From contig OZ374563.1 in NCBI GenBank assembly GCA_977862235.1, forward strand, positions 1 to 64,000: a stretch of DNA of 64,000 bases, read 5' to 3'. Both the position numbers and the translations under genes were made by a program. Under the pieces are notes generated by a model. That model searched no databases and was not told the DNA's origin. It saw only the letters and a list, made by a program, of their open reading frames with translations. Of the stretch, positions 1-45,114 are shown piece by piece (the first letter of the stretch is position 1; each line of letters begins with the position of its first letter). The DNA is from Dudresnaya verticillata. Lineage: Eukaryota.

Positions 1-1084
1 AACCACACCCCTAAACCCCTAAACCCCCACAAACCCCTAACCCTAAACCAACCCAAAACCCTAAACCCCTAAACCCAAACCCCTAAACCCCTCCCCTAAA
101 ACCCCTAAACCCCTAAACCCCTAAACCCCCTAAACCCCCTAAACCCCTAAACCCCTAAACCCCAAAACCAACCCTCAACCCAAAACCCCTAAACCCCTAA
201 ACCCCTAAACCCCTAAACCCCTAAACCCCTAAACCCCTAAACCCTAAAACCCCTAACCCTAAACCCCTAAACCCCTAAACCCCTAAACCCCTAACCCCTA
301 AACCCCTAACCCTAAACCCCTAAACCCCTAAACCCCTAAACCCCTAAACCCCTAAACCCCTAAACCCCAAAACCCCTAAACCCCTAAACCCCTAAACCCC
401 TAAACCCTAAAACCCTTAAACCCCTAAACCCCTAAAACCCCTAAACCCCTAAACCCCCTAAAACCCCTAAACCCTAAACCCCTAAACCCCTAAAACCCCT
501 AAAACCAAACCCTCTATAAACCCTAAAAACCCTAAACCCCTAAACCCCTAACCTAAACCCTAAACCCCTAAACCCTAAAACCCCTAAACCCCTAAAACCC
601 CTAAAAACCCTAAAGCCCTAAAACCCCTAAACCCCTAAAACCCCTAAACCCTAAACCCCTAAAACCCCTAAACCCCTAAAACCCCTAAAACCCCTAAACC
701 CTAAACCCCTAAAGCCCTAAACCCCTAAAAACCCCTAAACCCCTAAACCCCTAAAAACCCCTAAACCCTAAACCCCCTAAACCCCTAAACCCTACCCTAA
801 ACCCCTAAAACCCTAAACCCCTAAACCCCTAAAACCCCTAAAACCCTAAACCCCTAAACCCCTAAAACCCCTAAAACCCCTAAACCCCTAACCCCTAAAC
901 CCCTAAACCCCTAAACCCCTAAACCCCTAAAACCCCTAAAACCCCTAAACCCCTAAACCCCTAAACCCCTAAAACCCCTAAAACCCTAAAACCCCTAAAC
1001 CCCTAAACCCCTAAACCCCTAAAACCCTAAAACCCTAAAACCCCTAAACCCCTAAAACCCCTAAACCCCTAAACCCTAAACCCC
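1..1084. repeat. Telomeric repeat array, dominant unit CCCCTAAA (G-strand TTTAGGGG), with CCCTAAA and CCCCTAAAA variants
   Basis: Uninterrupted tandem C-rich units from position 1 to ~1084; the C-rich strand at the 5' start is the orientation of a left chromosome end. Confidence 0.97.
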
Positions 1085-1534
1085 AATCCCATTCGAGGTG
1101 ATAGCAGAAACCAGAGATCGGAAGCAGACCCGGTTCCGTACCCACGCTTGAATAATTTTTCCCGCTTCCTCCTTTGCATGAAGGAAAAACGGATTCCTAC
1201 CGAGCCTGGAAAGAATTGCAGATGCAGTACTACTTCCCGATACATGCTTTCTCTGGTACTTGGACGTTTTGTGTCCCTTGAAGCGCTGACGCTCCACACG
1301 ACCAACCCGATTCGCCTTCGGCTGGCGCTTAGCCTGCACACGACCAGCTTGACTCGCCTTCGCCTCCACCAGTGCGGCTTCTAGTTCACTTCTCCTATTC
1401 TCTGCAGCCTCCTCAACCCATTTTCGGCCGAATAGCAGCTCACACTGTTCAGGATGAACAATTGTTCCTTTCGCATACACATGAAGCACTGCCAGCAACC
1501 CAGGGTCCAGACCCTGGACATTCTCCAGCTCCAT
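1076..1534 (-). CDS. Small basic protein (~152 aa from ATG 1534) whose stop codon is supplied by the first telomere repeat; IQ-like motif near the end
   Basis: ATG in gccATGG context at 1534; TATTTAAA on the minus strand at ~1674-1681; last codons GGG ATT GGG GTT TAG run into the telomere; KIIQAWVRNR resembles an IQ motif. Confidence 0.5.
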   Translation of the reverse strand: MELENVQGLDPGLLAVLHVYAKGTIVHPEQCELLFGRKWVEEAAENRRSELEAALVEAKASQAGRVQAKRQPKANRVGRVERQRFKGHKTSKYQRKHVSGSSTASAILSRLGRNPFFLHAKEEAGKIIQAWVRNRVCFRSLVSAITSNGIGV

Positions 1535-2057
1535 GGCGAGAGTTTCTAATGTGAACAACGGGCTAGGAGAGGGGAGGCGGGAAACGGGGATGTGAGGGGG
1601 GGGCAGGGCAGGGTGATGGCGATTCTCCGTCTGTTCGTTTCCTCTTTCCCGGCGGTGTCTCTCTGACCGACCATTTAAATACGGCCCTTTCTCTCACACG
1701 GCAAAACAATTCGGGAAACTTCCAACTGCGTGTCAGTCACGTACTACGGTATAACAACGCAATTTGGCATAACTTTTAATTTTTGCGGGGTACACCGCAG
1801 CCGGTCCAGAATTTCATTATCCTCGGTTGCGATGCAGAATCCCGGCATCTCGCCCTGCCATGGCCCTCGCTCCCTTACCGTAACGGATTGGTATTAATGG
1901 CTGCGTACATCACGAATGAACCCTCAGCAGCAAAGCAAAAATCCCACATCACACTTCAGTCCCGGAAAGCACCATATTCCACCAATTCTGTAGTTACGAA
2001 TAATCCACCATTCATGTAGTTAAGCCCCAGGGCAAATTACTAACGTTTCCTCTCAAA

Positions 2058-2650
2058 TCGCCTTCCCGATTCCGGCTTTCGCACAATGACCCTCTTAGCA
2101 CATTCCTAAGCCCCATGCCTCACACTGAACGCCCGAGACTGTACAAAAAGTCGAACAACCCTTAGAAACCCTCCCAGGAGCCCCGAAACGATCCCGCAGT
2201 CCCCGCTTCGTTCACGCTTACTCCCCAATTCCGTTCCTTCACATCCAAATAGGCTAGTGCCCGCCTTCGCATTTCTAAGCCCCATGCCTCACGCTGAACG
2301 CCTAAAACCCGCCTTCGCAGTTCTGAAGCCCGTGCCCCACGCTGAGCGCCCGAGACTGCACAAGAAGTTGAACAACCCTTAGAAACCGCCCCAGGAGCCC
2401 CGAAACGACCCCGCAGCCCCGTTTCGTTCACGCGTACTCCCCAATTCCATTCCTTCACATTCAAATAGCCTAGTACCCGCCTTCCCAATTCCGGGTTTCG
2501 CACCATGACCCTCTTAGCGCATTTCTACGCCCTATCCCTCACGCTGCACACCCAACACTCTACAAGAAGCTTATCAACCCTGAGAAACCCTCCCAGGAGC
2601 CCGGAAACGATTCCGCACCACCCAGTTCGCTCGCAATGACTCCACAATTA
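2058..2650. repeat. Degenerate subtelomeric tandem repeat, three ~200-220 bp units
   Basis: Block ACCCT(T/G)AGAAACC.CCCAGGAGCCC.GAAACGA recurs at ~2158, ~2376 and ~2577; 2058-2160 is re-used at 2478-2580. Confidence 0.8.
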
Positions 2651-3196
2651 CGTAACGCGATCCATAAGCCTCTGAGAGCATTCCATACTGTACATACGGT
2701 TTCCATTACCCCGGTAAAGTCCCACGTCTCTTCATCTTACAACGTAAACCCCTCAAATAGCCAACGCGCAGTTCCTTGCCGCCATTCCACGTGATCCTCT
2801 CCTTGACGACACCACCGTTCCAACGAAGTCTCATTATCGCAAGTGGCGGACTCGCAACACTCACGCAAACGTTCCGCCTAGCGAAGGAAGTACCGAGCAC
2901 TACAACACGGTCAACCTAAACCACTTCCGAAAAAAAACCGTCCGCGTATCCAGAACCCCGCAAGCCTTTACAAACCTTGCAAGACTGTTTGCTAGGCTAG
3001 GCGTCTGTCAGACCCCATGAGGGTTCCCCTCAAGCGGCAACCAAGGCCCAGTCTAGCCCCATTTCAGCCAGCCAATCACATCGCAGAACATTTACAGTGG
3101 TTTGGGGGTGCTTACAGGCAACCCCGACTGATATGCGGCCAAGTAAAAAATCGTGCACAAAATCCCCCCCACCAAATCCCCCAAGGAGGGGTAATT

Positions 3197-3268
3197 AAAC
3201 CCCTAAACCCCTAAAACCCCTAAACCCCTAAACCTAAAACCCCTAAAACCCCCTAAACCCCTAAACCC
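3197..3268. repeat. Interstitial telomeric tract (~9 units), same orientation as the terminal array
   Basis: aaacccctaaacccctaaaacccctaaacccctaaacctaaaacccctaaaaccccctaaacccctaaaccc. Confidence 0.92.
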
Positions 3269-4210
3269 GTAATTACATACAGTCAATGTGAATGCCAACA
3301 CTGTTAATTCCTCCATGCGCTAAACCCATGGGTTGTTATATTTGGTCACATTTAATCCTTTCATACGGTAAACCCATTCGTAACTACATACGGTCACTGT
3401 TAAACCCTTCATGCGCTAAACCCAGTGGTAATTATATATGCTGACTGTTAAACCCATACTCCATTAAGTACAACTCTTGCTAGATTTCATCTCAGCTACT
3501 CCCATAACCCGTTAAACCAAGTACCTACGCATCTATCTACCTTACTCCCCAGCTTCCACTTAAACCGTAGCTCCCTTACGTACAAACAATCCTTGCTCCC
3601 AAACTACCTAATCCGTTACTATATAATATAGAAGTATAACCCCGATTTGGAGGAGGAGTTCGAATCTGACTTCCACTTGGAGGCTATTCATTGCTTGCTG
3701 GGGACACGTGTCGATTTGTCGTGAGGACACGTGTCGTGTCCGTATCAGCAAACAAGTGACCTGCTGCCTTCCACTTGGCACCATTATGTCGGGCACTGGG
3801 GACAGGCTGTTTTTCGCAACCCTAGATTCGTAACCCTACGCAAACTCTCGCCGCCGCCGTCGTCGGGCGGTACCCTGCAATGGGGACAGGCTGTTGTTCC
3901 GTAACACTCTCACCGCCGCCGTCGTAGCTCAACCTAAACGCGCTCGGACTATCATCGTGTCCCTACTTACTACTCGCGTGCACCCTCCCTGTCCGCTCCC
4001 AGCCCCCTCCCACGCTACTGCAATCCTTCTCGTACTCCCTCTTACCTTACCAAGTACCCCCTTACCCTCCTCACCATCATCGTCCCCATCCCTTTGCCTC
4101 CTTCTCCCCTCTCGTGAATTTCAAACACACCGCGTGGACACGTTACACACGTGTCCACGCCCTGCGCGGTGTGTGACAAGGAGCTCAATCGGTTCAGATA
4201 CCTGCCACCC

Positions 4211-5785
4211 TGTGTGAAGTTTCTGACAATTGTCAACTCTTTCACACATCTCAGCTCCACGTTCAATTTGTGTGAAGTTTCTGCAAGTTTACACATCTTT
4301 CACACATCTCCGCAACTCTTGACCTGCCTGAAGTTTCTGAAAGTCTTCAAGTCTCTTCTAACGTGGACGTGTCTCTCGACATAATGTGAAGTTGTTGACA
4401 ATTTGAAGAAGTTTCAGATTGCGCACACCACTAGGATGCTTGTTGCAATACTACAACTGTGAAAGAGTTGTCAACTCTTTCACAGTTGTGAAGATCTTTA
4501 GCTCTGTTACAGTTTTCAACGCGCTGCTCATCGTGAGGTTTGCGTCTGTCTCTCGACTTTCGTTCGCGGGCCTTCTTCGCCGCCCTGCTGCCTCCGCCCT
4601 ACCATCAGTACGCTTTGTTGTCCGTGTGGCTGCCGCCCGCCTATCTTTGCTGCTCCACTTGGGAAGCCTACACCGCCATCGGATCGGCGACAACCACCGC
4701 CCCACCCGTCGTCACGCGTAGAAGACAAGCCACCGCCGGGCTGTATGTATGGATAGCCGTCGTCGGGGTCGTCCCGCCGCCGCGCGCACGACACGTTCTG
4801 CTCCTACACTACCGTCCGCGGACCGTGGAACTCGCAGATTCTCTACCTCTGAAGCCGTCGCTCACACGACACCGGTCCCGTCCAGCCGTACGGGAAGAAA
4901 GCGTTTCTGCTGGCCATACCGCTCGGCTTTAGCCATACCGCTGGGTGGGACTGGTGTTGTGTGCTGCCCAGGTACCGGGGCACGGGGGTCGGGTACTTCG
5001 ATCCGCCGTTGCGCGCATTCTTAGGAGATCACCGAGATCACCGAGATCACCGCGCACTTGGCACGCACTTCTTGGCTATTTCTATTTTGGAATATCTGTA
5101 TTTGTAATCCCCGCCTTTTAACTTTATTCGGAACGGTCTCGTGCGCTATCTGGCAGTATATCGACACTCCGCTACCACGTTACCGTCGTCTCCCATCGTG
5201 GCGTCGGGCACACCCACCGCCACGTCGCCGCATCAACCTTCGCGTGCCCTCGTCGGTACCACTCCTGCCAGTACCCTCGGCTGCCTGGCGACGTCGCCTT
5301 CCGCGCAAGCTACGCAGGACAACGCCTCCAACTCAGCGCTGTTGTCGAGAAGCCATCCCCGCCGCTCCTTTTGGCACGCGCTCCCGGCAGCCGACTCGAT
5401 TCGGGCGCTTCGTCGCTGTGGGCCGACAGCCGCGCGCTTCAGGGCACCGGACTGCACATGCTGCGCACATTACCCCCACCACCGAACCGCTGTATACATC
5501 ATCCTCTTTGCGCCCGGTGCACCACTGTGCCGTCGCGTTCTTCCCGCTCTTCGCACTATTGCCGTCTTTTCGCAGTACTTCCGATCCCGAGTTGGGGTTT
5601 CTCTTCGAATTGTATTTTGCTTGTTATTGCACTCCCCTTCCGGATCCAGATGCTCTTCGTTTCGGTGTTGTGAAAGAAATGACAATTTGCAGAATCTTCA
5701 CAGGGCAAGGCATCGTTCTGGGACGTCTGCTTCAAACTGCTTTCGGAGCTGTGAAGTTCTTGACAATTTACAACTTCTTCACAAT
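4211..5785. repeat. Dispersed ~36-bp palindromic motif family TGTGAA(A)G..TGACAA....ACT.TTCACA
   Basis: Copies at ~4211, ~4269, ~4385, 4453-4489 (perfect 18-bp arms, 1-nt loop), ~5669 and ~5749. Confidence 0.7.
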
Positions 5786-6120
5786 TTCCAAGACTCTTCG
5801 CCGCCAGGTTACCGTCTTCTCTTGTCGTGTCGTCGAGTACACCAGCCGCGACGTCACCATATAATCTGCCCGCCATGCCCTCCTCGCTATCAACTCCTCC
5901 AAGAACCCTCGGCACGCTGGGGACGTTGCCTTCCGCAAGACCACGACAAAACCAGAACCCCCGCGCTGTTGCCGAGAAACCCTCTCCGCCGAGCCATCGT
6001 AGCAACTTGCGTAGGTCCTCCTTGTGGCGGACTCGATTCGGCCGCCTCTTCCCCGGCAAACTCGCGCTCCATGGCACCGCGGCGCAGCAGAGTTCACCCC
6101 ACCACCACCGCCGAGATGTA

Positions 6121-6433
6121 TGGAAAACCGCCTTATCCATCGGGATCCCATCTGGAAGACTGTTTATCCATCGGGACCCCGACCCGGAAGACTGTTTATG
6201 CATCGGGATCCCCATCTGGAAGACTGTTTATGCATCGGGATCGCCATCCGGAAGACTGTTTACTGATCGGGATCCCAATCTGGAAGACTGTTCAGAATGT
6301 GAAAGACTGGCAATGAATCCGGATTCCCAATCTGGAACACTGTTGATAATCCAAAAACAGTCTTCCACGGGAACCTTAATTTTAGTTAAAAAAGGGCACC
6401 TATAAACAGTCTTCCATGAAGGAATAGATATAG
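6121..6433. mobile_element. Putative DNA-transposon end: five 32-bp tandem units with GGAAGACTG motif plus a 79-bp terminal module
   Basis: Units start at 6121, 6153, 6185, 6217, 6249; the motif reappears inverted (AAACAGTCTTCCA) twice in 6355-6433, ending GAAGGAATAGATATAG. Confidence 0.55.
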
Positions 6434-6436
6434 AGG

Positions 6437-6664
6437 GCTGGAGGACTGTTCAGGCCTGGAGGACTGATCAGACAGCTTTCTGCAGGACTGTTCAGAATCT
6501 GGATCCCAATCGGGATTGGCTGGAGGACTTTTCAGGATTTGTGTACAATCCCGATTCCTCGTCTGGAGGACTTGTCTCAATCGCTAAACAGTCCTCCACG
6601 CCAACCTAAATTTCAATTAAAAAAGGGCAGGTCTGAACAGTCCTCCACGAAGGAATAGATATAG
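6437..6664. mobile_element. Second related transposon-like end with GGAGGACTG motif variant
   Basis: 6586-6664 is colinear with 6355-6433 and ends in the same GAAGGAATAGATATAG; several TGGAGGACT copies lie upstream. Confidence 0.55.
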
Positions 6665-6805
6665 CATTAAATTAATGTCCTGAACTTTATAGAATTTAAT
6701 ATAAACGTTACTATCAAGCTCACGGACGTTCTGACCGGACACGTGTCCTGAAACTTAGCACACGTGTCCACCCCACCATGGCGTACACGTGGACCAGCTT
6801 GGCAG

Positions 6806-7560
6806 CATTAATTTAATGCCCTCAACCTTATAGAATACAATTTAATCGTTCCTAACGTTGCAAACCAGCTCACGCCCTTACGACTCCTTGATCCAATCAA
6901 ACTAGCAAGGGATCCAATCCACAGAGTCCCGAGAACAACTAGATCTAATCGTACTGCACACTGACTCCCGCTGATCGAATCCATCCACCCGTACTCAATC
7001 CCAACCTGATGCAATCTACTGTACATTAACCCCCTCTCCTTCGACAACCCCAAGTCCCAGACAACCTAAACACTTCCACCCTCTGTAGTCCTAAACACTG
7101 AGCACTGAACCATAGAAAAGAAGCTAGAGCATTGTCCATAAACCCCTAAACCTGCAGCCCCCAGCCCGCCCTTCTGTACTTGTCAGAACCCTGTCAAGCA
7201 TCCCGCTGCACGTTTTGCCCCGTAACTTCGCGAAAATTTGCGTTGTTTGCATTCTGAGACCGCCCATCGACGCGTCTGACAAAGACGCTTCCATAGAGCT
7301 CCTGATCGTAGCTCTACCCCTATTGGTTCCAAAGTTATGCCCGCGACTCTCCAGGCCACCCTTACACAGCACGCAGCACCAGACTTTATCCCCTCAAGGC
7401 TTTCCCTGCTCCTCCATCCATCATTCCGTTACTAGATCTATTCCTGTACTATGTATCCCACGCCCTAAATCCAATTCGTCCACCACATTGATCCATTCCT
7501 TCTACCACCATGATGCATTGCATGCACTAACTCTACACCATTTACACCACTAATGTCATA
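6806..7560 (+). repeat. Subtelomeric direct repeat copy A (short third copy at ~6665-6740)
   Basis: Colinear blocks shared with 13328-14073: ATTAA.TTAATG..C..AACCTTATAGAAT, AACCTGATGCAATC, GTTCCAAAGTTATG, CCCTAAATCCAATTC.TCCACCACA.TGAT..ATTCC. Confidence 0.85.
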
Positions 7561-7961
7561 CCCCTCGCGTACGAAGCCATCCAAACTAACCCTGCACCTA
7601 ACCCTAAACCACTTACCAGCACTGTCAGCCTCTATCCCATCACACTCCCCAATCCTCACGTTTTTATTACCAGTAGAAGCGCAAGCCGATTCGCCTCGCG
7701 CACGCACGACCCTAAACCCTAAAACCCTAAAGATCCCTACGAAACTGGAGATGTGGTCTACGCTTTTTCACTGCTCCTTTCGTCAAGCTACGTCTTGGTA
7801 ACTTGACAAAAGGAAGCACAATCGGCCTCGTCAAGCTACGTCTTGGTTGCAACTATGTGTGGGGGAACATATGCGCAACCCAGCCCAACCCTATTTGCAC
7901 ACTTGCAATTGATGGCGCTTTTCGGTGCTGTTACTGCCGTCAATGTCTTTTTCGATGGTAG

Positions 7962-10592
7962 CTACGCCTTAGAAAACATCGACAATGACCCTGGCCTCGA
8001 TTGCAAGTTTGCAACCGAGGCCGGACAGTCATTCGTGGCCGCCAGGAACAACTTCATACTGCGGTCGTCGACCACGCCCTCGCTACCAATGGCCGAGACG
8101 CACTTTCCATAGTGCTGCTCAGCAATTTTCCTGCTGTGCCAACCTTGCAGCTCCAACGTGTGACCTACGTTGGACTCTTCCTCCTCATAACATTCTACAC
8201 CTCTCTTCAGTGCAAATACTACTTCCCGATTTGTCTGTGACTTGTCAATACTGTAACCGCCAAACCATTGCCGAAGCTTCTCCCCGTTATATCCTTGTGG
8301 AAGCCCATACCGATTCCACTGGCTTGCCATGACCTTTAGAGCGTCATTCCTCATCGGGACATTGAGAAGAAGGTAATCGTAACTGTCCTTCTTGACGCTC
8401 CTGCCGAGGTATTTCAGGAGTGCTACTCGCAACTCTACCCCAAGAATAATCACGGCCTTGTACAAGTTACTGGACACCGCATCGGGATGCTTGCTCGTGA
8501 ACTTCATCATACCTTCCTTCTGCGACCTGGTCTTGCTGTGACTCTGTATGCAAGTCAATCTGGCCCCACCGTGAAGTTGGAACCCCCTCGGGCCACTCCC
8601 ATTGTTCCTGGTTGCCATGAATCCCACCTCCGACCCGCGAGCAAAATTTCCCCCAGACAGATGGATGCATGCACAAACTAGCTCCACAGACTCCTGTACA
8701 AGGGATAGCATACTCACAGCTCTCTTGTGCGCCTCTCGAGCTGGAAGAGTTCCGAGTTGACCCATCGCGCGTCTCACACACGCACGGCAGTCCATCACAA
8801 TATCTCGATTTCCCTCGTCTTCGAAAAAACTGTACGGTGACTTGGTCTCCTTCGGATTCTCGATGACCACGGAGAGTCTCTCCTGAAAGTCTTCTGGAAG
8901 ATCAACCCCGTTCATGAAGCCCTCGTTCGTTGTTATGAGCTCCAGTATCCTCCGTTGCATACGTCTCACACACCTTCCAATGCGCTTCGCGCTCATATGG
9001 ATCCCAAGCACAAACCCACAGTGTTCCTCCTTGTGCCTCGGATCATCACACACCGTCCATGTACACCGTGAACTCTCCGAGCTTCTATGCTTGCGAGTTT
9101 TTGCCGCCAGTTCCTGCAACACATGGATACCGAGGTTGCCTCCAGACCTGTGATCTTTCCGAAATCTCTCAACCTCCTCGTCGGAATCCCCAGAAGATGG
9201 CCAGTGCACGATGGAGAGAATCGCGCAGCAGCCCGCAAGGTATGCCACTGCAGAAAGTGTGGGGGAAACTTCTACACCTCGCGACAGAGCGACTCCTCTC
9301 TCTGTCAGTCGCACTCCCAAGCAACCACAAATAACACTTGCTGCTGTTATACTCCCGGATTGTACGCTACTCTTCTCGGACAGAATGGCTTCTAGCAACC
9401 GATGTACAGCCCGCATGTGATCCCATTTGGTGCCCGGCCTCGATTGCAAACTTTCAATCGAGGCCGTGCGCGGTCGTTCAGTGCGCGATGCTTCAACCTT
9501 CTGGACAACTTCCTTTGCGGCGTCTAAAATCTCTTGGGAGGTGATTAGTGTCGTCTCCTGACACAAACGGAGAGTCATTACCAGTACCTCGGACATCTCC
9601 GTCCTGTACCTTTGTTCACTTTCATCACGGACCCATCGGAACTCCTTCTTCCTATCGAAATCCATGCCAGGGGGGGCCCGCACGGCGAGAAGTATCCTGG
9701 TCGATCCCATGTTTGGCCTTGTGCCTGCAGCACGAGCAGTTCTGCAAATCTTCATCAGGATGTCATTGAACCACTTGAGAACTTTCGTCTCGGGTATGCG
9801 GAAGACTGAGCGGCTCTTGTGTGCCTTGGCACTCATTTCCGCAGCCTTCTGAATGCTGATCCCAAGCTCTTTCAGTTTCAAATCCGCCCGTGTGTCAAAT
9901 GCAAAGTTTCCCATGGCACTCAACCGCGGCTCCTGCGAAAGAACGGAGACTTTTCTCTCCTCATCAACATCTTCAAGGCAGTGGATGATTCCTTGGGCAA
10001 TACTGTTGGCCACGTCGGATGTAGATCTACTCCCTTCATCACCGTCTTCTCGCACCAGGAAGTATTGTCCACCTTTTTTGAATAGTTTCTGAGCCTTTTC
10101 CGGTCGTACTTCTTTTCGAAGATCGGACAAGGTAACGTTCTCCATCGCTTGCACGTGCTTCCCGCGGTAATGCTGGTACAGACCCCGTATCGTAGGGCTG
10201 CTATGGTGGCATACGCGACACGGGTACACCTCAACCACAGGGAGAAATGACAGTGGCCGTACGCTTCCTCTGCATTCATCATTTTTCACGGTGGAAAAGT
10301 AATGCTCACGTTCCGTCTCGGTGCAGCTCGGTACAACGGAGGCCTTCACCTTCTGCAGGGAAGTGAACAGACCTCGAATTTTCTTCCCTTCGGCAGGCTT
10401 TTCGCATCTCTGAATATGATTGCGAAAGTTTTTTAATTGCTCTTTCCCAAGGTATCTCCCAGACCTGCACCTGCGCCAAAATGGATGTGAGATCTCAGGT
10501 ATGATAACAACCCCACTTTCCGACAGTCCTTCTTCCGCCTTTTTAAGTTCAGAAACGGACTCAGCTTCCGATGCAGTCATCTGGAAGGGCAA
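7962..10592 (-). CDS. DUF3505-like C2H2 zinc-finger / tyrosine-recombinase-like protein, related to the N-terminal region of fungal telomere-linked RecQ helicases, with no helicase domain in this ORF
   Basis: Open 876-aa frame. C2H2 finger CRVC-x12-H-x4-H followed by AQKLF..GGQYFLV. Recombinase-like motifs HLSGGNFARGSE (R652), HSKT (K687), KLRQW (R774), QGWH (H819)...HY (Y828). The first ATG (10580) follows ttctttgcccttccag, so an upstream exon is possible. Confidence 0.75.
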   Translation of the reverse strand: MPFQMTASEAESVSELKKAEEGLSESGVVIIPEISHPFWRRCRSGRYLGKEQLKNFRNHIQRCEKPAEGKKIRGLFTSLQKVKASVVPSCTETEREHYFSTVKNDECRGSVRPLSFLPVVEVYPCRVCHHSSPTIRGLYQHYRGKHVQAMENVTLSDLRKEVRPEKAQKLFKKGGQYFLVREDGDEGSRSTSDVANSIAQGIIHCLEDVDEERKVSVLSQEPRLSAMGNFAFDTRADLKLKELGISIQKAAEMSAKAHKSRSVFRIPETKVLKWFNDILMKICRTARAAGTRPNMGSTRILLAVRAPPGMDFDRKKEFRWVRDESEQRYRTEMSEVLVMTLRLCQETTLITSQEILDAAKEVVQKVEASRTERPRTASIESLQSRPGTKWDHMRAVHRLLEAILSEKSSVQSGSITAASVICGCLGVRLTERGVALSRGVEVSPTLSAVAYLAGCCAILSIVHWPSSGDSDEEVERFRKDHRSGGNLGIHVLQELAAKTRKHRSSESSRCTWTVCDDPRHKEEHCGFVLGIHMSAKRIGRCVRRMQRRILELITTNEGFMNGVDLPEDFQERLSVVIENPKETKSPYSFFEDEGNRDIVMDCRACVRRAMGQLGTLPAREAHKRAVSMLSLVQESVELVCACIHLSGGNFARGSEVGFMATRNNGSGPRGFQLHGGARLTCIQSHSKTRSQKEGMMKFTSKHPDAVSSNLYKAVIILGVELRVALLKYLGRSVKKDSYDYLLLNVPMRNDALKVMASQWNRYGLPQGYNGEKLRQWFGGYSIDKSQTNREVVFALKRGVECYEEEESNVGHTLELQGWHSRKIAEQHYGKCVSAIGSEGVVDDRSMKLFLAATNDCPASVANLQSRPGSLSMFSKA

Positions 10593-12065
10593 AGAATTGG
10601 GGATGCAATGTTCGTACTCGGTTTCCGTGTACTTCTGCCAGTCGGCCTCGATTGCAAGCTTGCAATCGAAGCCGGGTCCTCGGATTCGGAACTACTTTGC
10701 CGCTCAAGTCCAAAAGCCTCCTTTCTTGTGCCCGTCGGCCTCGGTTCCAAATTTGCAATCGAAGCCGGTTGCCTCACAAGTTCACAAAGAATATCCGCTT
10801 CTCCTTAGAGTTCAAAACGGGCTCTTTTGCAAGCTAACAACTGTGTTCGTCCCCAAGGAATGGCCAGGGCTCTGTTGTAAGCTTGCAATTGTGCCCGGTT
10901 TTCAAACTCTCGTGGAGATAAGGTCGATAATTTCCAGTACCGACGCAGACAATTACAATTACAAGTCGACTCGGGCAATTGGACGATGCAGTGGATCCGA
11001 CGGTGCGCTTGCCGGAATAGTTCTGCGTTGCTCGCGTCACGTCGGACGCGCAGAAAGGAAGGGAAGAAGGCTTGGTGCGGGGCAGAACGCCAAGGAAAGA
11101 GGTTAGTGGTCGCAAATCAAAATGTTAGGCACGTCGAGGGTCGAAAAAGAAGCGATAGTTGAGCGGCTTAGGGTCAGGGGGGTGATTGTCTGGATCGTGG
11201 GGAGGCCATGGGCCTCACAACTGTCTGTCACACTTATGCGCAACTGCCGTCGATATTTTGGCGGGAAACCGAAACACGGCCAGCTTGCTCTCCTGTATGT
11301 GAGATCCCTGTCTGGCGGGAACCTTGCGCAACCTCGCTCTCCTGACAAGTGTTTCAATTACGGTGCCGAATAGCAGTTTGCGACCAATGCCTGGTGATGC
11401 TTCACACCTATCATATCAATGCGTTTCGGTACGTTTGGAAACTGCCGCCAGACTCACGCCATCAGACTTAAACCCCACACTCCAGTCGGTGGTCGTCCCC
11501 TCCCCCTCCCCCTCTCTCCAGAGACACCGACCCTAGCCCACAGTTCAACACCTCCCCGCAGCTTCACCGACAGAGTCAACCGGAGCTGCCCTGCTTCACT
11601 GCCCCATCCGATTAACGTCGCCGTCGGGCGCAGCCGTGCGCACTATCCTAATCCACAGCGATTCAATTCGGATATGATCTACTTCTGTTTGGATCCCATT
11701 CGGATCCAATTAAAGAAGCAGATCATATCCGTCCTAGGTTGCGAACTTGCAATCGAGGCCGGACGGGAAAATCCGAGGCATGATGTACGTATTATCCCCC
11801 TCATTTCGCGATCTCTTCGTCGCGACTTACATTTCCCGCTCAATAGAGTTCGCAACGGACCTGTGCCGGCCCATTCACACCCTCCGGCCACGATTGCAAG
11901 CTTGCAACCTAGGCTGCAAAGCCCATTGGGCTGTGTGGAGCATGCTTTCCATCCGCCCTGTATTGTAAACTTTCAATCGAGGCCGAGAGGGCTGGAGTGC
12001 GTTCGAGTGCGCTGTGTGGAGCATTCTTTCTATCCGGCCTGCATTGAAAACTTTCAATTGAGGCC
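7993..12065. repeat. Nine copies of a 30-bp palindrome, consensus GGCCTCGATTGCAAGCTTGCAATCGAGGCC
   Basis: Copies at 7993, 9436, 10644, 10737, 10867 (degenerate), 11731, 11886, 11955 and 12036. Confidence 0.9.
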
Positions 12066-12115
12066 GGGAGGGTTGAAACGGGCTATACGGAGCATTCCTC
12101 CGCACGTCCACGTCC

Positions 12116-12181
12116 AGTGATCGGGAGAATACGTAGACATTAGTCCACGTATTCTCCCGCTCACTACGCGATCTTTGCTAG
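12116..12181 (+). other. 23-bp-stem hairpin followed 12 nt later by CTAG|T (Helitron 3'-end-like)
   Basis: 12116-12138 pairs with 12143-12165 (2 mismatches, loop ATTA); CTAG at 12178-12181, then T. Confidence 0.45.
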
Positions 12182-12201
12182 TAAAGGACTTCCTTCATCA
12201 G

Positions 12202-12660
12202 TGTTGTCGCTGGTGTTTCGATACCCGGACAATGGATGCCTTACTGACTCGTTGTATGCCCACTCCTGGTTTCCTGCAAACCTGCGGGTGGTATAGTTAG
12301 AATTCACCACACTTTTTTCCTTCCCTGGAGCTGTTGCACGTTGCATGTCTACAAGTATGGAACTGAATGTGCTGAATGCTTCGTATGGTTGTCGGTCCAG
12401 CAGTGCATGCGGGCCGGTGCCACGCGCCCCGTTGTCGCTGGTGTTTCGATACCCAGACAATGGGTGCCTTACTGACTCGTTGTATAGCCACCTGGCTGAC
12501 TGCACACCTACGGGTGGTAGAGTTAGCATTCACCACACTTGTTTCCTTCCTTGGACTTGTTGCGTATTACATGTCTACAAGTACGGAACTGAATGTGCTG
12601 AATGCTTCGTACGGTTGTTGGTCTAACGGTACATGCGGGACGGTGCCACGCGCCCCGTTG
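12202..12660. repeat. Tandem duplication, two ~229-bp units
   Basis: GTTGTCGCTGGTGTTTCGATACCC.GACAATGG.TGCCTTACTGACTCG at ~12202 and ~12431; the units are colinear to GGTGCCACGCGCCCCGTTG. Confidence 0.9.
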
Positions 12661-13327
12661 CTTTGTGTGCGCCCAACCCAATGACACACTCCCCACAGAG
12701 TTTGTTTCCGGTAGGCTTACAGGTTTACTTGCAAGCGCGCGCGCTTTTCCCGGTCTCGATTTTGTATTTCGTATTTTGAACCGCATGGATGCAGCATGCG
12801 CGCGCACACAAATCGATATCAGCACTGCGTGCTCGACACGCGCACTGCGCCTGCTGTGTTGGTTGGCCAAAAGCAGCACGGCACCGTGTGCGCTCCGTAC
12901 CTCACAGTTTGTATTCGCCGTTAAGCATGAAGTCGGCCCTCACGGGGTCAGGAAGGCCGTTGTCAAGCATGGAGTCGAAACGAATTGGCCAATGCTAGCC
13001 TATAGCGATATCCCCTCACAGTAGTTCGTATTGTGCGACTCGCTCCTTAACGGAATGTTGATTTGTCATTAATCTGGGCGTTTCGTCTCCATGCTTAACC
13101 CCGGATTACATATAGGAAGCCGCCATTTGGTCCAGGGATGTCGAATCAGGCTCCAAATCAATTTTAGAGGCCTCCTTCATCTAGAAATCGCGTATCTTTT
13201 GAATTCTTCGCAGGTACACCAACCAGGGCGGTCCTACACAAGTATCAGGCGCTGTAAGGTCGCTGCTATACCCCTGCCGCTGTAAATTTGCACAGCTCCT
13301 CATGAGAGCATGCTGAAGACGTGGGTC

Positions 13328-14073
13328 TATTAAATTAATGACCTGGAACCTTATAGAATTTAATATAAACACAGTATTTAATATGTAAACAGTGAACCAG
13401 CTCACGGACGTTCTCGCTCCTTCCTTCAATCAAACCAGTGCTGAATCTAATCCCCAGAGCCTCTAGATACAGTCTTATGTCGTATATTCTTCCCTTGATC
13501 TAGTCGACAAACCGGTATTGGATCCGAACCTGATGCAATCCATGACTTTTACTACTGTACTGTACTATACTTTATCATCCCTCCCTTTCCTTTTCCCCGT
13601 CCTTACTCCTTTCATTCCCACCCCCTACATCCCTAAACGCGTTAAAATGATACGTCCCTAACACCCCTAAACCCACCCATAAGCATACATGCCCCAAACC
13701 CCTATATAACCCGCTCAAAAGCTGCCGACGGCCCGTGGGGACGTTTTGCACCATAGAAACGCGCCAAAAATTTGATTTAGGAAGTTAAGGGCTTCCCGCA
13801 ACGCGTAGCAACGATACGCTTCGATTGAGCTACTGAACATCGACCTACCCCCAGCCGTTCCAAAGTTATGAGCACAACCGTCCAAGCCACCCTCACCCCA
13901 GCCTACAAACTTGATCCGATTGTGGTGATCCTTGATCTAATCTTCTGGGTACTCAATCTAATCCAATTCTATGTCCCTAAATCCAATTCATCCACCACAC
14001 TGATTCATTCCATGCACCACCATGGTTCATTCCATGCACCAACACTAGACCCTTTACCCCATCAATATCATAC
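13328..14073 (+). repeat. Subtelomeric direct repeat copy B, ending where a solo LTR begins
   Basis: Diverged colinear match to 6806-7560. Confidence 0.85.
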
Positions 14074-14079
14074 GGGGCG

Positions 14080-14888
14080 TGTAGTATAGCTGTGAGCACA
14101 CCATCAACAGCGGCTGTAAGCTATGCTGACAGCTCTGCACTGCAATGGTGCGCACAATGACGTCCACTGGGGAATCGTAATTGGGCAGTGAACCCGCTGG
14201 TTTTTTCGCTACTTTTTAGCGGCGGTCGACCGCCTTGCTGTCGGCAGCGGCCGCGCGCCGTGCCACACACGGCGCGCCTCAGTGACACTCGTCGCCATCG
14301 AGCCGTTGAGGGCGGCTTCCCGTTACGCCCTGCGCGCGCCCACAGGTAGCCGTTACCCGGACATGTCGACACGTGTATGGACGCGCGCTCACGAACCTCC
14401 CGCGTTCGTGCTGTTGGAGCGTACCCACCATAGAGTAGCCGTAGGCGCATACTAGTGTACAGTGTGTAAGGCCGTCTGCCATCGACGGCTCAGTAAACCG
14501 GTCAAGCAACAGCTCGCGCTGAAGCTTGCCCCCAGCCTTTCGGGTTCGATCCCTTTCCTCTACACCAGCGGGCGATTCTCATTTTCCCTCGCCTCGCTAG
14601 GCTTTCCTTCTTTCTTTTTCTTTTCCGTCGGCTTAGTGCCGCCCTTCGGCAGGGACGATGGGATCCGACAGCTGCCTACCCCGATATGGTACGTCGCGTG
14701 CACGCTCCGGCATCGACGCCGTTGATCCGCACCGCCGCGGCACACGCGGCCGACACCGCTCTACCACTAGCTACCCATCCACGGGTCTGCGTGACGGCTT
14801 CGGACCAGCGAGTATCAGACGTCGGGTCGGGCCGAGGTCTATAATACATCAGGGAATTTACTCGGACCGACCCGACGTCTATAATACA
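14080..14888 (+). mobile_element. Solo LTR of a Gypsy family related to the 44106-45046 LTR; 3' end duplicated
   Basis: TGTAGTATAG...CTATAATACA terminal inverted repeat; colinear with 22469-23237 and 44430-45046; CTATAATACATCAGGGAATTTACT occurs at 14839 and 14879; no clear TSD. Confidence 0.8.
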
Positions 14889-15329
14889 TCAGGGAATTTA
14901 CTTTCCTATTCCATCCGAGAATATAATTATGCTTTCTATCGTTCCTACCACATAGTTGGAACCAATGAAAACTACTTGCTCCTTGATTGCTTGTGCGTAG
15001 AAGTCCTGCGGATTTAGATACCGCCCCAGTTGGTCAAAGAACGGCTTCCAAATTGCTTTATAAAGAATCTTCAATCTTCAATCCTACGGTTTTTCCTGTC
15101 CAGGGCAGACAAGTCACAAGACACTCAGTTTATGTTTAAGGTCTCACGCCCAAAATGATCCGCGATATTGAGCATGTTACAAGGACAAGCTGAGCATATT
15201 CCAAGGACAATCAAGATCGAGGCGCGAGTGACGAAACAAGAACGAGGACTGCAGAAGAAGTTGAAAGGTTTGTATCCCCGGAAGGTGTCGACAGGAACAG
15301 GAGTGCTCGTGACGCGCTGTGGCAACAGC

Positions 15330-16140
15330 ACAATAGCTCACGCAGCCACGGGTACGGTGCGAGAGTGGAACAAAGTCATATCTGTGCACAGTACAGACGG
15401 CCCTGGGCGCGGTGCAAGAACAGGCAGGAAGCTATCTGGGCGCAGTAGTGAACTGCTCCTGGGGCGGCATGGAAACGGTCAGGAAAGTGCCTGGGCGCAG
15501 CAGGGGCGCCATAGGCGTGATACGCAATCATGGTCAAGGTTATTTCTGGTAGCAGCGCAGGCGGCTCTGGGGCAGGATTAAAGCGGCAGGAAAGTGCCTG
15601 GTACAGTACTGACGGGTCTGGACGCAGTGTGCGAACGGGAAGGAAATTGCCAGTGCGCAGCAGCGAACGGCCCATGGGTGCGGCATGGCAGCGGTCATGA
15701 TAGTGCCTAAGCGCAGTGGCTACTGCCATCGTTTTGGTACGCGAGCCTGGCCAGGGCAATGTGCGGGCATAGAGCGCACGCGGCCCTGGGCGCGGCGCCA
15801 GATTGGGGCAGGCGTGGGCCAAGGAAATTTCTGGGAAGGGTTTTGATGAAGGGCAGGCAGGGGCGGCCGAGGGTAGGGCCGGGGCCGTGGGAAATTTCGG
15901 ATAAAAGTTTGTTACAGAAATTCCGAAAGTTGGAACGTTTCGCGAACGTTTCAGCCGCCACACGAAAACCAGGGAAACTTCTATAACTTCCGAACGAAAT
16001 GTTCGTTTACAAAACGGTTTTCACCGCTAAACTCAGCTTACTCCGTCCTTTCCAACGCAGGAAAGAAAAATCTGTTCTGAGAAATGCTGTGACGGAAAAC
16101 ATTTTCTGACACATCGGAAATCAGGGTTCTTCTCAGTTCT
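15330..16140 (+). repeat. Unclassified interspersed repeat, copy 1
   Basis: Colinear with ~29250-29965, including the identical TTTGTTACAGAAATTCCGAAAGTTGGAACGTTTCGCGAA. Confidence 0.8.
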
Positions 16141-16224
16141 AGGTCAGAAACAGACATCACCATGCTCGTTTGACAACTATTCAATGAATAGGTCTGTGGA
16201 AAATATCAATAACAATATGAAGTT

Positions 16225-16324
16225 TACACCAGTCGCGCTACGATTTGATATTAACATCTTTGATTTGATTTGATATATTTGATTTAATTTGATATTAATA
16301 TCAAATCGTAGCGCGAATGATGTA
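16225..16324. mobile_element. ~100-bp fold-back element (MITE-like), TA-flanked
   Basis: Perfect 22-bp arms 16233-16254 and 16295-16316, extendable with 2 mismatches to TA dinucleotides; ATTTG microsatellite between the arms. Confidence 0.55.
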
Positions 16325-16937
16325 AGATCTCAATAAAACGCCAGAGTTTGGGACACTAACATTTTGCTCAGAAACAAATCTCATCTGAGTTTCAATCATT
16401 CTCGGACAAAAACACTTGGTAGTACATTTCCATGAATTTTAGAAGAAATTATTTCATAATTCTTGGAACTGTTTCACTATTAATATTTTCCGACTAACTT
16501 ACATAGCAAATAACTGAGAACAGGTTGTAGAATTACACATTGTTCGCATCCTTGAAGTCAAGCTTATGTATGATCTCGAATACTCGCTGGACATGAAATT
16601 TTCTGAATTAATTTCAGTACAAATCATTCCTCCTAAGAGCCACAAGGCCTAGAATATTTTCTTTTCTGTTGTTGGAATTCAGTATGTGTGTTTATATGAG
16701 CCCGTAAATTATTGCGCTCGATCGCAGCTAATTTACTATACTGATGATTCAAATTAGTTGCTAATGCTCGAATACTTCTACATCGCGAGCCGCCACTGTG
16801 TGTGACACAGAAGAGCTTTGAGATTGCAAAAGTTCTAATCCTTCTACATGTCGAAAAGCCAGGCAGAGGATACTGTATAGTAGTACCACAGGTTTGATAT
16901 TTTTCTAATCAGGTTTCATCTACTGGTAATATATTCA

Positions 16938-18446
16938 ATGTTACGACATGCAGCTGATGCCGGAACAAATTTCGCGCTTGTGAGAGGAGTTTTATCTTCC
17001 CGAAGGTCGTTGAAGATCACTATGGAGAAGCAAGTACGGAAACGGGCATCTTTGAAAGTGGCCTTTTGCACTGCAACCGTGCTCACAGTAATGACAGCCT
17101 ACGTTTGTTGGTCTCAAGTGCAAGCAAAACTGGCGAGGAGAAAGTCTTACACTTTCTCCATTGATTCCGAGCATCGAAATATTATCAGATTTCCAACGAG
17201 AGTTCCTCGAATCGCCATTGCCGAACTAGTTGAACATCTGGGCCTTCGAATTGGAGCAGAAGTAGGTGTTCAGAGAGGATACTTCGCTGCTGAAACATTA
17301 CAGATATGGAATTCTTGTCAGAAATATGTCCTTGTAGACTTATGGGCCCACCAAGAAAATTACTTGGACAAAGCCAACAAAAACCAAACCATTCAAGAGG
17401 AAATTATGAAGGACGCAATGAAAAACGTAGATCACTGGGAAGGAAAGATTGAGACATGCAGAAATTTCTCAGAGGTATGTGCTCATCAATACCCTGACAA
17501 CTACTTTGACTACGTTTACATTGATGCACGGCATGACTTCAAAGGAGTGTATGCTGATTTGCAGGCCTGGTACCCAAAAATTAAAAGCGATGGTATTATG
17601 GCTGGGCATGATTACATGAGTGCCGTCGAAGTCGCCAGACAAGATTGGACGGTTCAATTTGACGGCACATTTGACTATGGGAGACAGGCAGTAAGAGGGG
17701 CAGTCAATCTATTCGTCGCAGAGAACGAACAATATGTTACATTTCCAGACTGGCCAAAGAAATATCGGTCCTGGGTCATTCGAAAGACAGCCGGTCAACG
17801 AAAGTCGAATAATATCTTACACTTTATTAATCTCTCATGTTTTGAGTATGAAGAAAGAGAAGATTGTAGGCTAGTTCCGAAGGATTATGCTAAAATGGTC
17901 ATGCACTGGGAAAGGAAGAATTTGGATTCAATTTCTATTCTATGGACTCCTGCTCTGGTTCGGAGGTTCTTCCCACATTTATCAGTCCTGTTCTACACGG
18001 CTTACAACAGAAATGTTTATAATTTCGAAGAGGTGATCAAGCTAGAGGTGTTGTACAAATTTGGCGGGATATTTATAAGCGCCGAGAACATTCCTATAAT
18101 TGGGATCCGTCAATATATAGAATCACTGAGTACAGGGAAAGTGGTTGCGGCTTGCCGTCAGAAATCCTCTGGAAAGGAATTCAGGTCTACTGGAAATCGC
18201 TGTCAAAAGCTATCTCCTTTGCTCTTGGGGTCTGAAAAAGGAAATGAGGCCCTGAAAATACTATCACGAACACATAGAAGCATTTTCTCGCTGGGATTTC
18301 GAAGTTTGAACGCGTATTCTGGACTTCTGCCAGAGCTCATCAAAAATGTTAGCCATATTGTAGTAGACCCCGATGTAACTCTTCCATGTACAATAGAAGA
18401 GTACTCTGAAAATTGCGTAGCATTGGACGGATTCTCTTTAACGTGA
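16938..18446 (+). CDS. Type II membrane protein: class I SAM methyltransferase (Methyltransf_24-like) fused to a GT32/DXD-family glycosyltransferase-like domain; alternative start 17022
   Basis: Basic tail plus hydrophobic anchor VAFCTATVLTVMTAYVCW; methyltransferase motifs AEVGVQRG, LVDLW, FDYVYIDARH, GIMAGHDY; then NILHFI...ILWT...IKLEVLYKFGGIFIS. Intact and intronless. Confidence 0.85.
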   Translation: MLRHAADAGTNFALVRGVLSSRRSLKITMEKQVRKRASLKVAFCTATVLTVMTAYVCWSQVQAKLARRKSYTFSIDSEHRNIIRFPTRVPRIAIAELVEHLGLRIGAEVGVQRGYFAAETLQIWNSCQKYVLVDLWAHQENYLDKANKNQTIQEEIMKDAMKNVDHWEGKIETCRNFSEVCAHQYPDNYFDYVYIDARHDFKGVYADLQAWYPKIKSDGIMAGHDYMSAVEVARQDWTVQFDGTFDYGRQAVRGAVNLFVAENEQYVTFPDWPKKYRSWVIRKTAGQRKSNNILHFINLSCFEYEEREDCRLVPKDYAKMVMHWERKNLDSISILWTPALVRRFFPHLSVLFYTAYNRNVYNFEEVIKLEVLYKFGGIFISAENIPIIGIRQYIESLSTGKVVAACRQKSSGKEFRSTGNRCQKLSPLLLGSEKGNEALKILSRTHRSIFSLGFRSLNAYSGLLPELIKNVSHIVVDPDVTLPCTIEEYSENCVALDGFSLT

Positions 18447-44100: not shown

Positions 44101-44105
44101 CTTCA
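41105..44105 (-). mobile_element. Decayed Ty1/Copia pol, interrupted at 44105 by a Gypsy insertion; 3' LTR begins at 41105 and runs leftward
   Basis: Protease tail FMFGDG...PLLVGMD, integrase (HLHFYHPS, RVDQ, GLGERYH), RT (YADD), RNase H (PADALTK); Copia domain order; PPT CTCCCCCC at 41106. Confidence 0.88.
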
Positions 44106-45046: not shown

Positions 45047-45047
45047 C

Positions 45048-45060
45048 TGGTCTCCCGACC
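45048..45060 (+). promoter_or_regulatory. Primer-binding site, probably tRNA-Tyr
   Basis: TGGTCTCCCGACC is complementary to ...GGTCGGGAGACCA; G72/A73 fits eukaryotic tRNA-Tyr. Confidence 0.55.
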
Positions 45061-45114
45061 TAGAAGTCGCAGAAGACCCTATCACCTCTCGCGTCGACGC
45101 GATCGAGGCCAAGA

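What the first reader, a model, noticed from the sequence alone, without database searches (positions are those of the whole stretch)
7962..10592. Subtelomeric tyrosine-recombinase-like gene: the non-helicase half of telomere-linked helicase/DUF3505 proteins, standing alone
Seen: an open 876-aa frame 7 kb from the telomere with a canonical C2H2 finger and R652, K687, R774, H819, Y828 in order. H819 and Y828 are 9 residues apart. Established: that order and spacing is the tyrosine recombinase catalytic set (Cre W315/Y324, lambda Int H333/Y342), also used by Cryptons, Starship captains and protelomerases. From recollection, fungal telomere-linked RecQ helicase/DUF3505 proteins carry very similar blocks (GGxPARGxE, YxK, QAGH...YG) ahead of the helicase. 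Inference: this is a recombinase-encoding subtelomeric mobile element or telomere-remodelling gene in a probably non-fungal host, here lacking the helicase.
Basis: partly seen in the sequence, partly recalled or inferred. Interest (0 to 1): 0.9.

Follow-up and report, generated by a model that had tools for sequence, protein, structure and literature searches.

The report
Helicase-less telomere recombinase with palindromic sites
An intact gene near a chromosome end, probably of a red seaweed, encodes the front half of the "telomere-linked helicase" proteins known from fungi; it is predicted to fold as a DNA cut-and-rejoin enzyme (tyrosine recombinase) and sits among nine 34-base palindromes that are its likely target sites, which makes the unknown job of these genes testable.

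Summary
Observation confirmed. The minus-strand frame is open (872 aa from the ATG at 10580) and ends 6.9 kb from a TTTAGGGG telomere. R652, K687, R774, H819 and Y828 are kept in 57/57, 57/57, 51/54, 52/52 and 51/52 homologues. The AlphaFold model (pLDDT 83) matches only tyrosine recombinases and type IB topoisomerases in its top 16 rows (XerA Z 10.7, XerH 9.6). Homologues read OrsD/DUF3505 zinc fingers, this core, then a RecQ-type helicase (41 of 52). No helicase lies anywhere in the window, and helicase-less rows are scattered on the tree, so the loss looks secondary. New here: nine 34-bp lox-sized palindromes, all within 7991-12067 and two inside the ORF; one splits a conserved Trp codon as a 36-nt GT..AG segment. 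Signs of decay: a degenerate first zinc finger and 7 of 33 conserved columns changed. Mobility, activity, expression and copy number are untested, and the red-seaweed host is inferred. Earlier AI notes of this scan reported the same recombinase reading in fungi and a moss; I found it in no paper. The open non-fungal copy with candidate sites is the addition.

The parts
7..1084 (+). Terminal telomere tract, (CCCCTAAA)n = TTTAGGGG on the other strand
7962..10580 (-). Open reading frame, 872 aa from the first ATG, read towards the telomere: OrsD-type zinc fingers plus tyrosine-recombinase fold, no helicase
10155..10478 (-). OrsD/DUF3505-homologous zinc-finger region (residues 39-146). Second C2H2 finger intact; first degenerate (Trp at a Cys column, Glu at a His column)
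9141..9788 (-). Predicted helical core-binding (DNA-binding) domain of the recombinase, about residues 269-484; borders approximate
   Evidence: XerH, Cre, integron and lambda integrase rows start at model residues 265-291
8031..9068 (-). Predicted catalytic domain, about residues 509-854: R652 (8637-8639), K687 (8532-8534), R774 (8271-8273), H819 (8136-8138), Y828 (8109-8111); invariant C515-x4-H520-x4-C525 motif at its start
7991..8026 (-). 36-nt GT..AG-bounded segment holding palindrome copy 1; it interrupts the codon of a family-conserved Trp (mini-intron or in-frame insertion)
9434..9467 (.). 34-bp palindrome copy 2, inside the ORF in a loop whose length varies widely among homologues (42-157 aa over the stretch that is 61 aa here)
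10642..10898 (.). Palindrome copies 3-5 (10642-10675, 10735-10768, 10865-10898), 62-318 bp upstream of the ATG; all three have a symmetric 6-bp core
11729..12067 (.). Palindrome copies 6-9 (11729-11762, 11884-11917, 11953-11986, 12034-12067)
6807..7561 (+). Left copy of a ~750-bp direct repeat (62% identity, E 2e-48) that brackets the gene and its palindromes
13329..14073 (+). Right copy of the direct repeat; holds degenerate telomere-like motifs and ends where an unrelated dispersed repeat begins (14074)
7706..7735 (+). Short interstitial telomere-like tract about 230 bp past the stop codon
3196..3272 (+). Interstitial telomere tract, about 9 units

Best explanation
This gene is a helicase-less derivative of the telomere-linked helicase (TLH) genes, and its protein is predicted to be a tyrosine recombinase that likely binds the neighbouring 34-bp palindromes as a dimer and would cut and rejoin DNA there to spread or reshuffle its own subtelomeric unit. 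Shown: the open frame, homology to OrsD-core-helicase proteins, the conserved R-K-R-H-Y set, the absence of a helicase in the window, and the clustering of the palindromes on the gene. Predicted: a core-binding plus catalytic domain of Xer/Cre type with Tyr828 as the nucleophile. Inferred: one monomer binds each 14-bp arm, cuts about 6 bp apart through a 3'-phosphotyrosine, and exchanges strands with a site on another chromosome end or on an excised circle. A helicase, if needed, would come from full-length copies elsewhere in the genome. Isolated sites such as the 36-nt one inside the Trp codon would be scars of such events. This copy may be partly decayed.
For: Fold: model pLDDT 83.2, pTM 0.69 from 82 rows. 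All 16 top rows of 48,161 chains are tyrosine recombinases or type IB topoisomerases: XerA Z 10.7 (176 aligned, rmsd 4.8), XerH Z 9.6 (302 aligned, rmsd 5.4, model 265-850), Cre Z 8.8 (282 aligned, rmsd 5.7); the first unrelated row is Z 6.7. Residues: R 57/57, K 57/57, R 51/54, H 52/52, Y 51/52 in homologues of about 20-30% identity. Family: 82 hits at E<=0.001; 41 of 52 with the Tyr column run on into a helicase, median 136 aa after the Tyr; Atlas top clusters are OrsD proteins of 912 and 933 aa, scores 0.97 and 0.95. Sites: 13 matches to the half-site against 0.53 expected, 12 of them in 7993-12065. Nine full copies score 23-29 of 30, and none of 20 simulated sequences reached 21. All lie in 4.1 of 63 kb (p about 3e-9) and have the 34-bp size of loxP (loxP size). 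Setting: 16 of 17 interstitial CCCTAAA motifs lie in the first 14 kb, like the telomere-bounded TLH regions of Fusarium (10.1101/2024.02.27.582403).
Against: No binding, cleavage, expression, copy-number or empty-site evidence exists here. Foldseek found no PDB match at E<=0.001 (Cre rows E 0.25-0.36, probability up to 0.60). Z 8-11 on an 872-residue, mostly helical model is moderate, and type IB topoisomerases tie with Cre. The His of the usual H-x-x-R motif is missing here (E771) and is not among the six commonest residues of that column. Active sites inside the gene would let it delete itself, and the cores differ between copies. A second 34-bp palindrome family lies at 4213-5783 with no gene beside it, so such clusters need not belong to an adjacent gene. 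Decay: the first zinc finger has lost two family ligands; the protein departs from 7 of 33 conserved columns, fifth worst of 58, median 9%; one palindrome breaks a conserved Trp unless it is spliced out. No element ends were defined.
Confidence: 0.5

Rival explanations
1. Decaying relic: a once full-length TLH gene was broken just after the recombinase domain and healed with telomere repeats. The palindromes are an unrelated tiny mobile unit that hopped locally, twice into the gene. The fold is real but this copy does nothing.
For: The closest clade includes four helicase-bearing rows, and helicase-less rows form no clade (12 changes, shuffled mean 11). Degenerate first finger; 7 of 33 conserved columns changed; Trp codon interrupted; telomere-like tract 230 bp past the stop. 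Truncated TLH copies are common in Fusarium.
Against: 872 codons are open and all five catalytic residues are kept. The stop falls right at the end of the domain, as in the best hit P0002 (52 residues after the Tyr against 48 here). Two Atlas clusters of 71 and 621 mostly ascomycete OrsD proteins of about 900 aa list no helicase family, so this length occurs in nature. The palindrome is absent from the other 59 kb of the window.
Confidence: 0.25
2. Domesticated telomere helper: the domain works like a type IB topoisomerase or nicking-closing enzyme that serves RecQ-driven recombination at chromosome ends. It is not the engine of a selfish element, and the palindromes are only binding or autoregulatory sites.
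For: Type IB topoisomerases score Z 8.9 and 8.8, tied with Cre. The H-x-x-R His is absent, as in topoisomerases (notes Lys there). Fission-yeast tlh genes are reported to help recovery from telomerase loss. Arrays of inverted repeats beside DNA-binding genes are described in red-algal transposons as self-binding sites.
Against: The model also aligns over the core-binding domain of Xer, Cre and integrases (250-300 residues), whereas the topoisomerase rows cover only the catalytic part. Homologues are very divergent, and this copy lacks the helicase.
Confidence: 0.15
3. Telomere-resolvase-like enzyme: the dimer cuts the palindrome 6 bp apart and seals each half as a hairpin, breaking or fusing chromosome ends as protelomerases do.
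For: Protelomerases act as dimers on palindromes with a self-complementary 6-bp core (PMC3558466); 4 of 9 copies have a symmetric 6-bp core. TelA also lacks the H-x-x-R His. The gene is subtelomeric.
Against: The chromosome ends in ordinary tandem repeats, not a hairpin junction. TelK and TelA rank low (Z 5.7 and 5.5) against XerA 10.7. 5 of 9 cores are asymmetric.
Confidence: 0.1

Closest known systems
[quoted passage not shown]
   Same: Telomere-adjacent position, interstitial telomere repeats, N-terminal C2H2/OrsD region and a conserved block ahead of where the helicase sits. Direct homologues have the full OrsD-core-DEAD-Helicase_C layout.
   Different: No helicase; first finger degenerate; host probably a red seaweed; a cluster of 34-bp palindromes that the text I read of these papers does not mention. 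The papers give the TLH domain no function.
Simple tyrosine recombinases XerA, XerH, XerD, Cre, integron and phage integrases
   Same: Predicted core-binding plus catalytic fold, R-K-R-H-Y in order with 9 residues between H and Y, and neighbouring palindromes of loxP size.
   Different: 6-13% sequence identity, large helical insertions, an invariant C-x4-H-x4-C motif, N-terminal zinc fingers, no H-x-x-R His; activity untested.
Eukaryotic tyrosine-recombinase transposons: Cryptons (DUF3504 and others) and Starship captains (DUF3435)
   Same: Eukaryotic gene with a recombinase fold in repeat-rich DNA; DUF3435 clusters are weak Atlas neighbours (0.85 and 0.82).
   Different: No Pfam hit to either family; relatives are fused to a RecQ-type helicase; no 4-6 bp terminal repeats or cargo could be defined.
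Protelomerases TelK and TelA
   Same: Same superfamily, act on palindromes at DNA ends, and lack the H-x-x-R His.
   Different: Weak structural rank (Z 5.5-5.7); the end here is a repeat-type telomere.

Membership tests
Tyrosine recombinase superfamily | Catalytic-domain fold, with a core-binding domain in front | tested here: met
   top 16 rows all recombinases or type IB topoisomerases; XerH aligned over 302 residues. Foldseek alone was inconclusive.
Tyrosine recombinase superfamily | Conserved R, K, R, H/W and Y in order | tested here: met
   57/57, 57/57, 51/54, 52/52, 51/52 homologues
Tyrosine recombinase superfamily | His of the H-x-x-R motif (usual in recombinases; replaced in topoisomerases IB, TelA and some Starship captains) | tested here: not met
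   E771 here; the column is mostly Ser, Arg, Gly, Asn, Thr
Tyrosine recombinase superfamily | Cleavage through a 3'-phosphotyrosine and strand exchange at defined sites | not testable with these tools
   needs biochemistry
Telomere-linked helicase (TLH) genes | Next to terminal telomere repeats, with interstitial repeats | tested here: met
Telomere-linked helicase (TLH) genes | Second N-terminal C2H2 motif and OrsD/DUF3505 homology | tested here: met
Telomere-linked helicase (TLH) genes | First N-terminal C2H2 motif | tested here: not met
   Trp39 at a column that is Cys in 39 of 40 rows; Glu64 at a column that is His in 43 of 48
Telomere-linked helicase (TLH) genes | [quoted passage not shown] | tested here: inconclusive
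   The conserved block lies in the same place in helicase-bearing homologues, but no named TLH sequence was available to align and the paper's alignment figure is not held.
Telomere-linked helicase (TLH) genes | RecQ helicase domain | tested here: not met
   A profile from 12 homologue helicases and tblastn with 82 homologues found nothing significant in six frames of the 64 kb.
Telomere-linked helicase (TLH) genes | Near-identical copies at most chromosome ends | not testable with these tools
   no assembly held
Starship captain | DUF3435 domain as first gene of a cargo element | tested here: not met
   no Pfam hit at E up to 10; Atlas 0.85 is a lead only
Crypton | Short (4-6 bp) direct repeats at defined element ends | not testable with these tools
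   needs a second copy or an empty site; feature taken from PMC13465315
Protelomerase | Hairpin-capped DNA end | tested here: not met
   tandem TTTAGGGG repeats at the end
Protelomerase | Palindromic target with self-complementary 6-bp core | tested here: inconclusive
   4 of 9 copies symmetric; not shown to be targets

The most novel reading that the evidence does not exclude
TLH-type genes are an unrecognised, eukaryote-wide class of tyrosine-recombinase elements that live at chromosome ends. This red-seaweed copy shows their recognition sequence for the first time: a lox-like 34-bp palindrome that the enzyme recombines and leaves behind as splicable 36-nt scars.
Probability: 0.3. Interest if true: 0.9.

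Novelty: new variant of a known kind. Interest (0 to 1): 0.76.

Why it matters
TLH genes cap most chromosome ends in many fungi, and a 2024 preprint still calls their function undetermined. Reading their conserved core as a tyrosine recombinase turns them from passive helicase genes into candidate site-specific DNA cutters. That would explain their telomere-bounded arrays and could bear on subtelomeric rearrangement. This copy adds what a test needs: an open, intron-poor frame without the helicase, named catalytic residues to mutate, and a candidate 34-bp substrate beside it. It would also extend the family to a probable red seaweed, and a new eukaryotic lox-like system could be of use as a tool.

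Tried and rejected
Genome-wide copy search: no assembly held. Sequencing runs: none was listed, which says nothing on expression. Word-indexed protein searches gave nothing useful: none for residues 400-876, none among proteins of 2289-5000 aa, and only one of the alignment's own members. A single-sequence fold failed (pLDDT 34.5). Sequence searches of the PDB found nothing significant. Foldseek on viral models gave one hit, an uncharacterised Feldmannia virus protein B5LWN9 (E 1.3e-4); I could not establish whether it is that virus's recombinase. DNA around homologues could not be obtained: metagenome scans with P0005 and P0059 and a viral scan with the query found no relative, and the palindrome has no exact match in viral contigs. 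So it is unknown whether P0002 and P0003 are truly helicase-less or whether homologues carry palindromes. Cluster look-ups of 30 of the 82 hits gave no usable name or organism. No Rfam match in 1000-17000. No dimer prediction was obtained. Upstream exon: rejected as unnecessary. A dedicated helicase-less clade: not supported (quick tree, SH-aLRT only). Copy 2 of the palindrome as an intron: no GT..AG ends flank it. Chlamydomonas RECQ3 and the ToxB paper were false leads.
Full report
1. Observation. The window starts with a telomere tract (7-1084, period 8, commonest unit CCCCTAAA). The finding is a minus-strand frame, read towards the telomere: 876 residues from 10592, 872 from the first ATG at 10580. 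R652, K687, R774, H819 and Y828 are as stated, and the zinc finger is C125/C128/H141/H146. Pfam finds only weak zinc-finger matches and neither DUF3505/OrsD nor DUF3435 at E up to 10.

2. Family. phmmer against 1.84 billion representatives gave 82 hits at E<=0.001, the best at 28-30% identity. I scanned 57 of the 82 with Pfam; the long ones typically read OrsD, an unannotated core, DEAD, Helicase_C and sometimes RecQ_Zn_bind. That layout is reported for fungal subtelomeric genes (passages of 10.1101/721753, and PMC5576322). A profile from the OrsD regions of 15 homologues matches residues 52-146 of this protein (27 bits; best of 200 shuffles 4.8). The ESM Atlas independently ranks OrsD clusters of 912 and 933 aa first (0.97 and 0.95; recognition score 2165, below the tool's 2300 mark; only 4 of the ten best hits share a family). 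Homologues align to the start of the frame, so no upstream exon is needed.

3. Catalytic set. I kept the 57 homologues whose core match spans 330-750 residues and dropped 25 shorter fragments. Without the query, the columns read R652 57/57, K687 57/57, R774 51/54, H819 52/52 and Y828 51/52, counting rows with a residue. E655 and R669 are also invariant, as is C515-x4-H520-x4-C525, a possible zinc site (inference). The His expected three residues before R774 is not conserved. TelA, type IB topoisomerases and some Starship captains also vary there (passages of PMC3558466, and PMC10104507).

4. Fold. With 82 rows AlphaFold2 gave pLDDT 83.2 and pTM 0.69; without an alignment it failed. Foldseek on the PDB gave no match at E<=0.001; Cre rows had the highest probability, 0.60, at E 0.25. 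The exhaustive aligner over 48,161 chains put only tyrosine recombinases and type IB topoisomerases in ranks 1-16: XerA Z 10.7 (176 aligned, rmsd 4.8), XerH 9.6 (302, 5.4), topoisomerases IB 8.9 and 8.8, Cre 8.8 (282, 5.7), integron integrase 8.6; unrelated helical bundles start at 6.7; TelK 5.7 and TelA 5.5. The Z values are moderate; the weight lies in the uniform list and the two-domain coverage. If the last aligned residues are gap-free, the range ends put Y828 (model 824) on the nucleophile of lambda integrase, variola topoisomerase, TelK and integron integrase, and one residue off that of Tn1549 integrase. This is inference: four of these residue numbers are recalled, and only Tn1549 Y379 is in the call. 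I could not measure active-site geometry.

5. Is it stand-alone? A helicase profile from 12 homologues and tblastn with all 82 found no helicase in any frame of the 64 kb. Of 52 homologues with the Tyr column, 41 continue into a helicase (five of them only its start), beginning a median 136 residues after the Tyr; 11 do not. Nine of those 11 end within 116 residues and may be fragments, which I could not check. On a quick tree the helicase-less rows are scattered (12 changes, shuffled mean 11), and the query's clade (support 99) holds four helicase-bearing rows. The loss is therefore probably secondary and recurrent. Even so, the best hit P0002 stops at nearly the same place, and the two top Atlas clusters (71 and 621 members, mostly ascomycete where known) list no helicase family, so the short form may be viable.

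6. A 14-bp half-site has 13 matches against 0.53 expected. Nine full copies of a 30-bp core score 23-29 of 30, and none of 20 simulated sequences reached 21. Viewed as 34-mers they have 14-bp arms and a 6-bp centre, with 11-15 of 17 positions paired and 4 of 9 centres symmetric, and all fall in 7991-12067 (p about 3e-9). Two are inside the frame. Copy 2 lies in a loop of very variable length. Copy 1 lies in a 36-nt stretch (8026-7991) that begins GT and ends AG on the coding strand; without it a Trp stands 28 residues after the Tyr, exactly as in P0002, P0003, P0005 and P0010. A Trp lies 20-36 residues after the Tyr in 47 of 49 homologues (three of these only at +21), and the unspliced query has none. 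So the palindrome was inserted there as a unit; whether it is spliced is unknown. A second 34-bp family with a similar centre lies at 4213-5783, away from any recognised gene.

7. Surroundings and host. A 750-bp direct repeat of 62% identity (6807-7561 and 13329-14073) brackets the gene and its palindromes, and 16 of 17 interstitial CCCTAAA motifs lie in the first 14 kb. This resembles the telomere-bounded TLH regions of Fusarium (10.1101/2024.02.27.582403, parts 1-3 of 4 read). A red seaweed is inferred from two things: the related telomere TTTTTAGGGG of Bostrychia, and an ORF at 60418-62316 with a weak PhyH-type oxygenase signal (0.89, a lead only) next to a 45-bp tandem array, which recalls the PAG3 genes described for red-seaweed transposons (passages). 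I put this at about 0.8.

8. Decay. The first zinc finger has Trp and Glu at columns that are Cys in 39/40 and His in 43/48 rows. The query departs from 7 of 33 conserved core columns, fifth worst of 58 (median 9%), though its closest relatives are also divergent (P0006 8 of 35, P0003 5 of 35). Against this stand 872 open codons and the intact catalytic set.

9. Mechanism. Most likely (0.5) the protein is a site-specific recombinase that binds the palindromes as a dimer and moves or reshuffles its subtelomeric unit, with helicase activity, if needed, supplied in trans. Rivals: a decaying relic with an unrelated mini-element (0.25), a topoisomerase-like domesticated helper (0.15), a hairpin-forming resolvase (0.1). 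That the fold is of the tyrosine-recombinase superfamily I put at about 0.9.

10. Known or new. It fails strict TLH membership (no helicase, first finger degenerate) and is filed as a helicase-less TLH derivative; it is not a Starship captain or a protelomerase, and Crypton ends could not be tested. The TLH family is reported from fungi and a choanoflagellate, with function undetermined. I found no paper that calls the TLH core a recombinase: 'OrsD' with 'tyrosine recombinase' 0 papers; 'telomere-linked helicase' with 'recombinase' 3, listing only, all on yeast chromatin or chromosome fusion; 'DUF3505' 6 (passages of three read); a five-term search 1, irrelevant; 'recombinase' occurs 0 times in PMC12857005; 'helicase' and 'telomer' occur 0 times in a 2026 paper on fungal recombinase elements (PMC13465315). 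The library lacks most subscription papers, the original TLH-domain paper (Rehmeyer 2009) was not read, and preprint supplements and figures were not visible, so prior description is not excluded. Eight earlier AI notes of this scan report the same recombinase reading in fungal genomes and a moss. None was found for this sequence, this genome, or with red algae or palindromes. These notes are not independent support.

11. Verdict. It is a new variant of a known kind, and it makes a long-open question directly testable. Interest 0.76.

Noticed in passing
window 4213-5783: A second family of about seven 34-bp imperfect palindromes (TGTGAA...TTCACA ends) whose centre resembles that of the family around the gene; no gene recognised beside it. 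Could be the sites of a lost paralogue.
   Followed up: partly
window 60418-62529: 632-aa ORF (minus strand) with a weak PhyH/2OG-oxygenase signal, next to a 45-bp tandem array; resembles the PAG3 accessory gene of red-seaweed Plavaka transposons. A 387-aa ORF without a Pfam hit lies upstream at 62725-63888.
   Followed up: partly
window 44000-54000: GC-rich chromodomain Ty3/gypsy retrotransposon in pieces: RVT_1, RNase H, integrase zinc finger and chromo domain.
   Followed up: partly
window 16884-18446: AT-rich 520-codon ORF with a Methyltransf_24 domain followed by an unannotated C-terminal part; the first host-like gene after the subtelomere.
   Followed up: no
window 19393-20013: Copia-type gag fragment.
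   Followed up: no
window 14074-14848: Dispersed repeat, 80% identical to 22463-23237 and related to 44430-45040; begins exactly where the right subtelomeric direct repeat ends.
   Followed up: no
window 2059-2653, 3299-3455, 6133-6664, 12203-12660: Several local tandem arrays in the subtelomere with periods of about 210, 48, 32 and 226 bp.
   Followed up: no
BFVD entry B5LWN9: An uncharacterised 620-aa Feldmannia species virus protein is the only significant Foldseek match among viral models (E 1.3e-4, TM 0.34 by target); possibly a phaeovirus recombinase, not established.
   Followed up: partly
protein P0059 cluster: One distant full-length homologue (OrsD-core-helicase, 1653 aa) has 22 members at 90% identity, several broken into pieces, as expected of a multicopy family.
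   Followed up: partly
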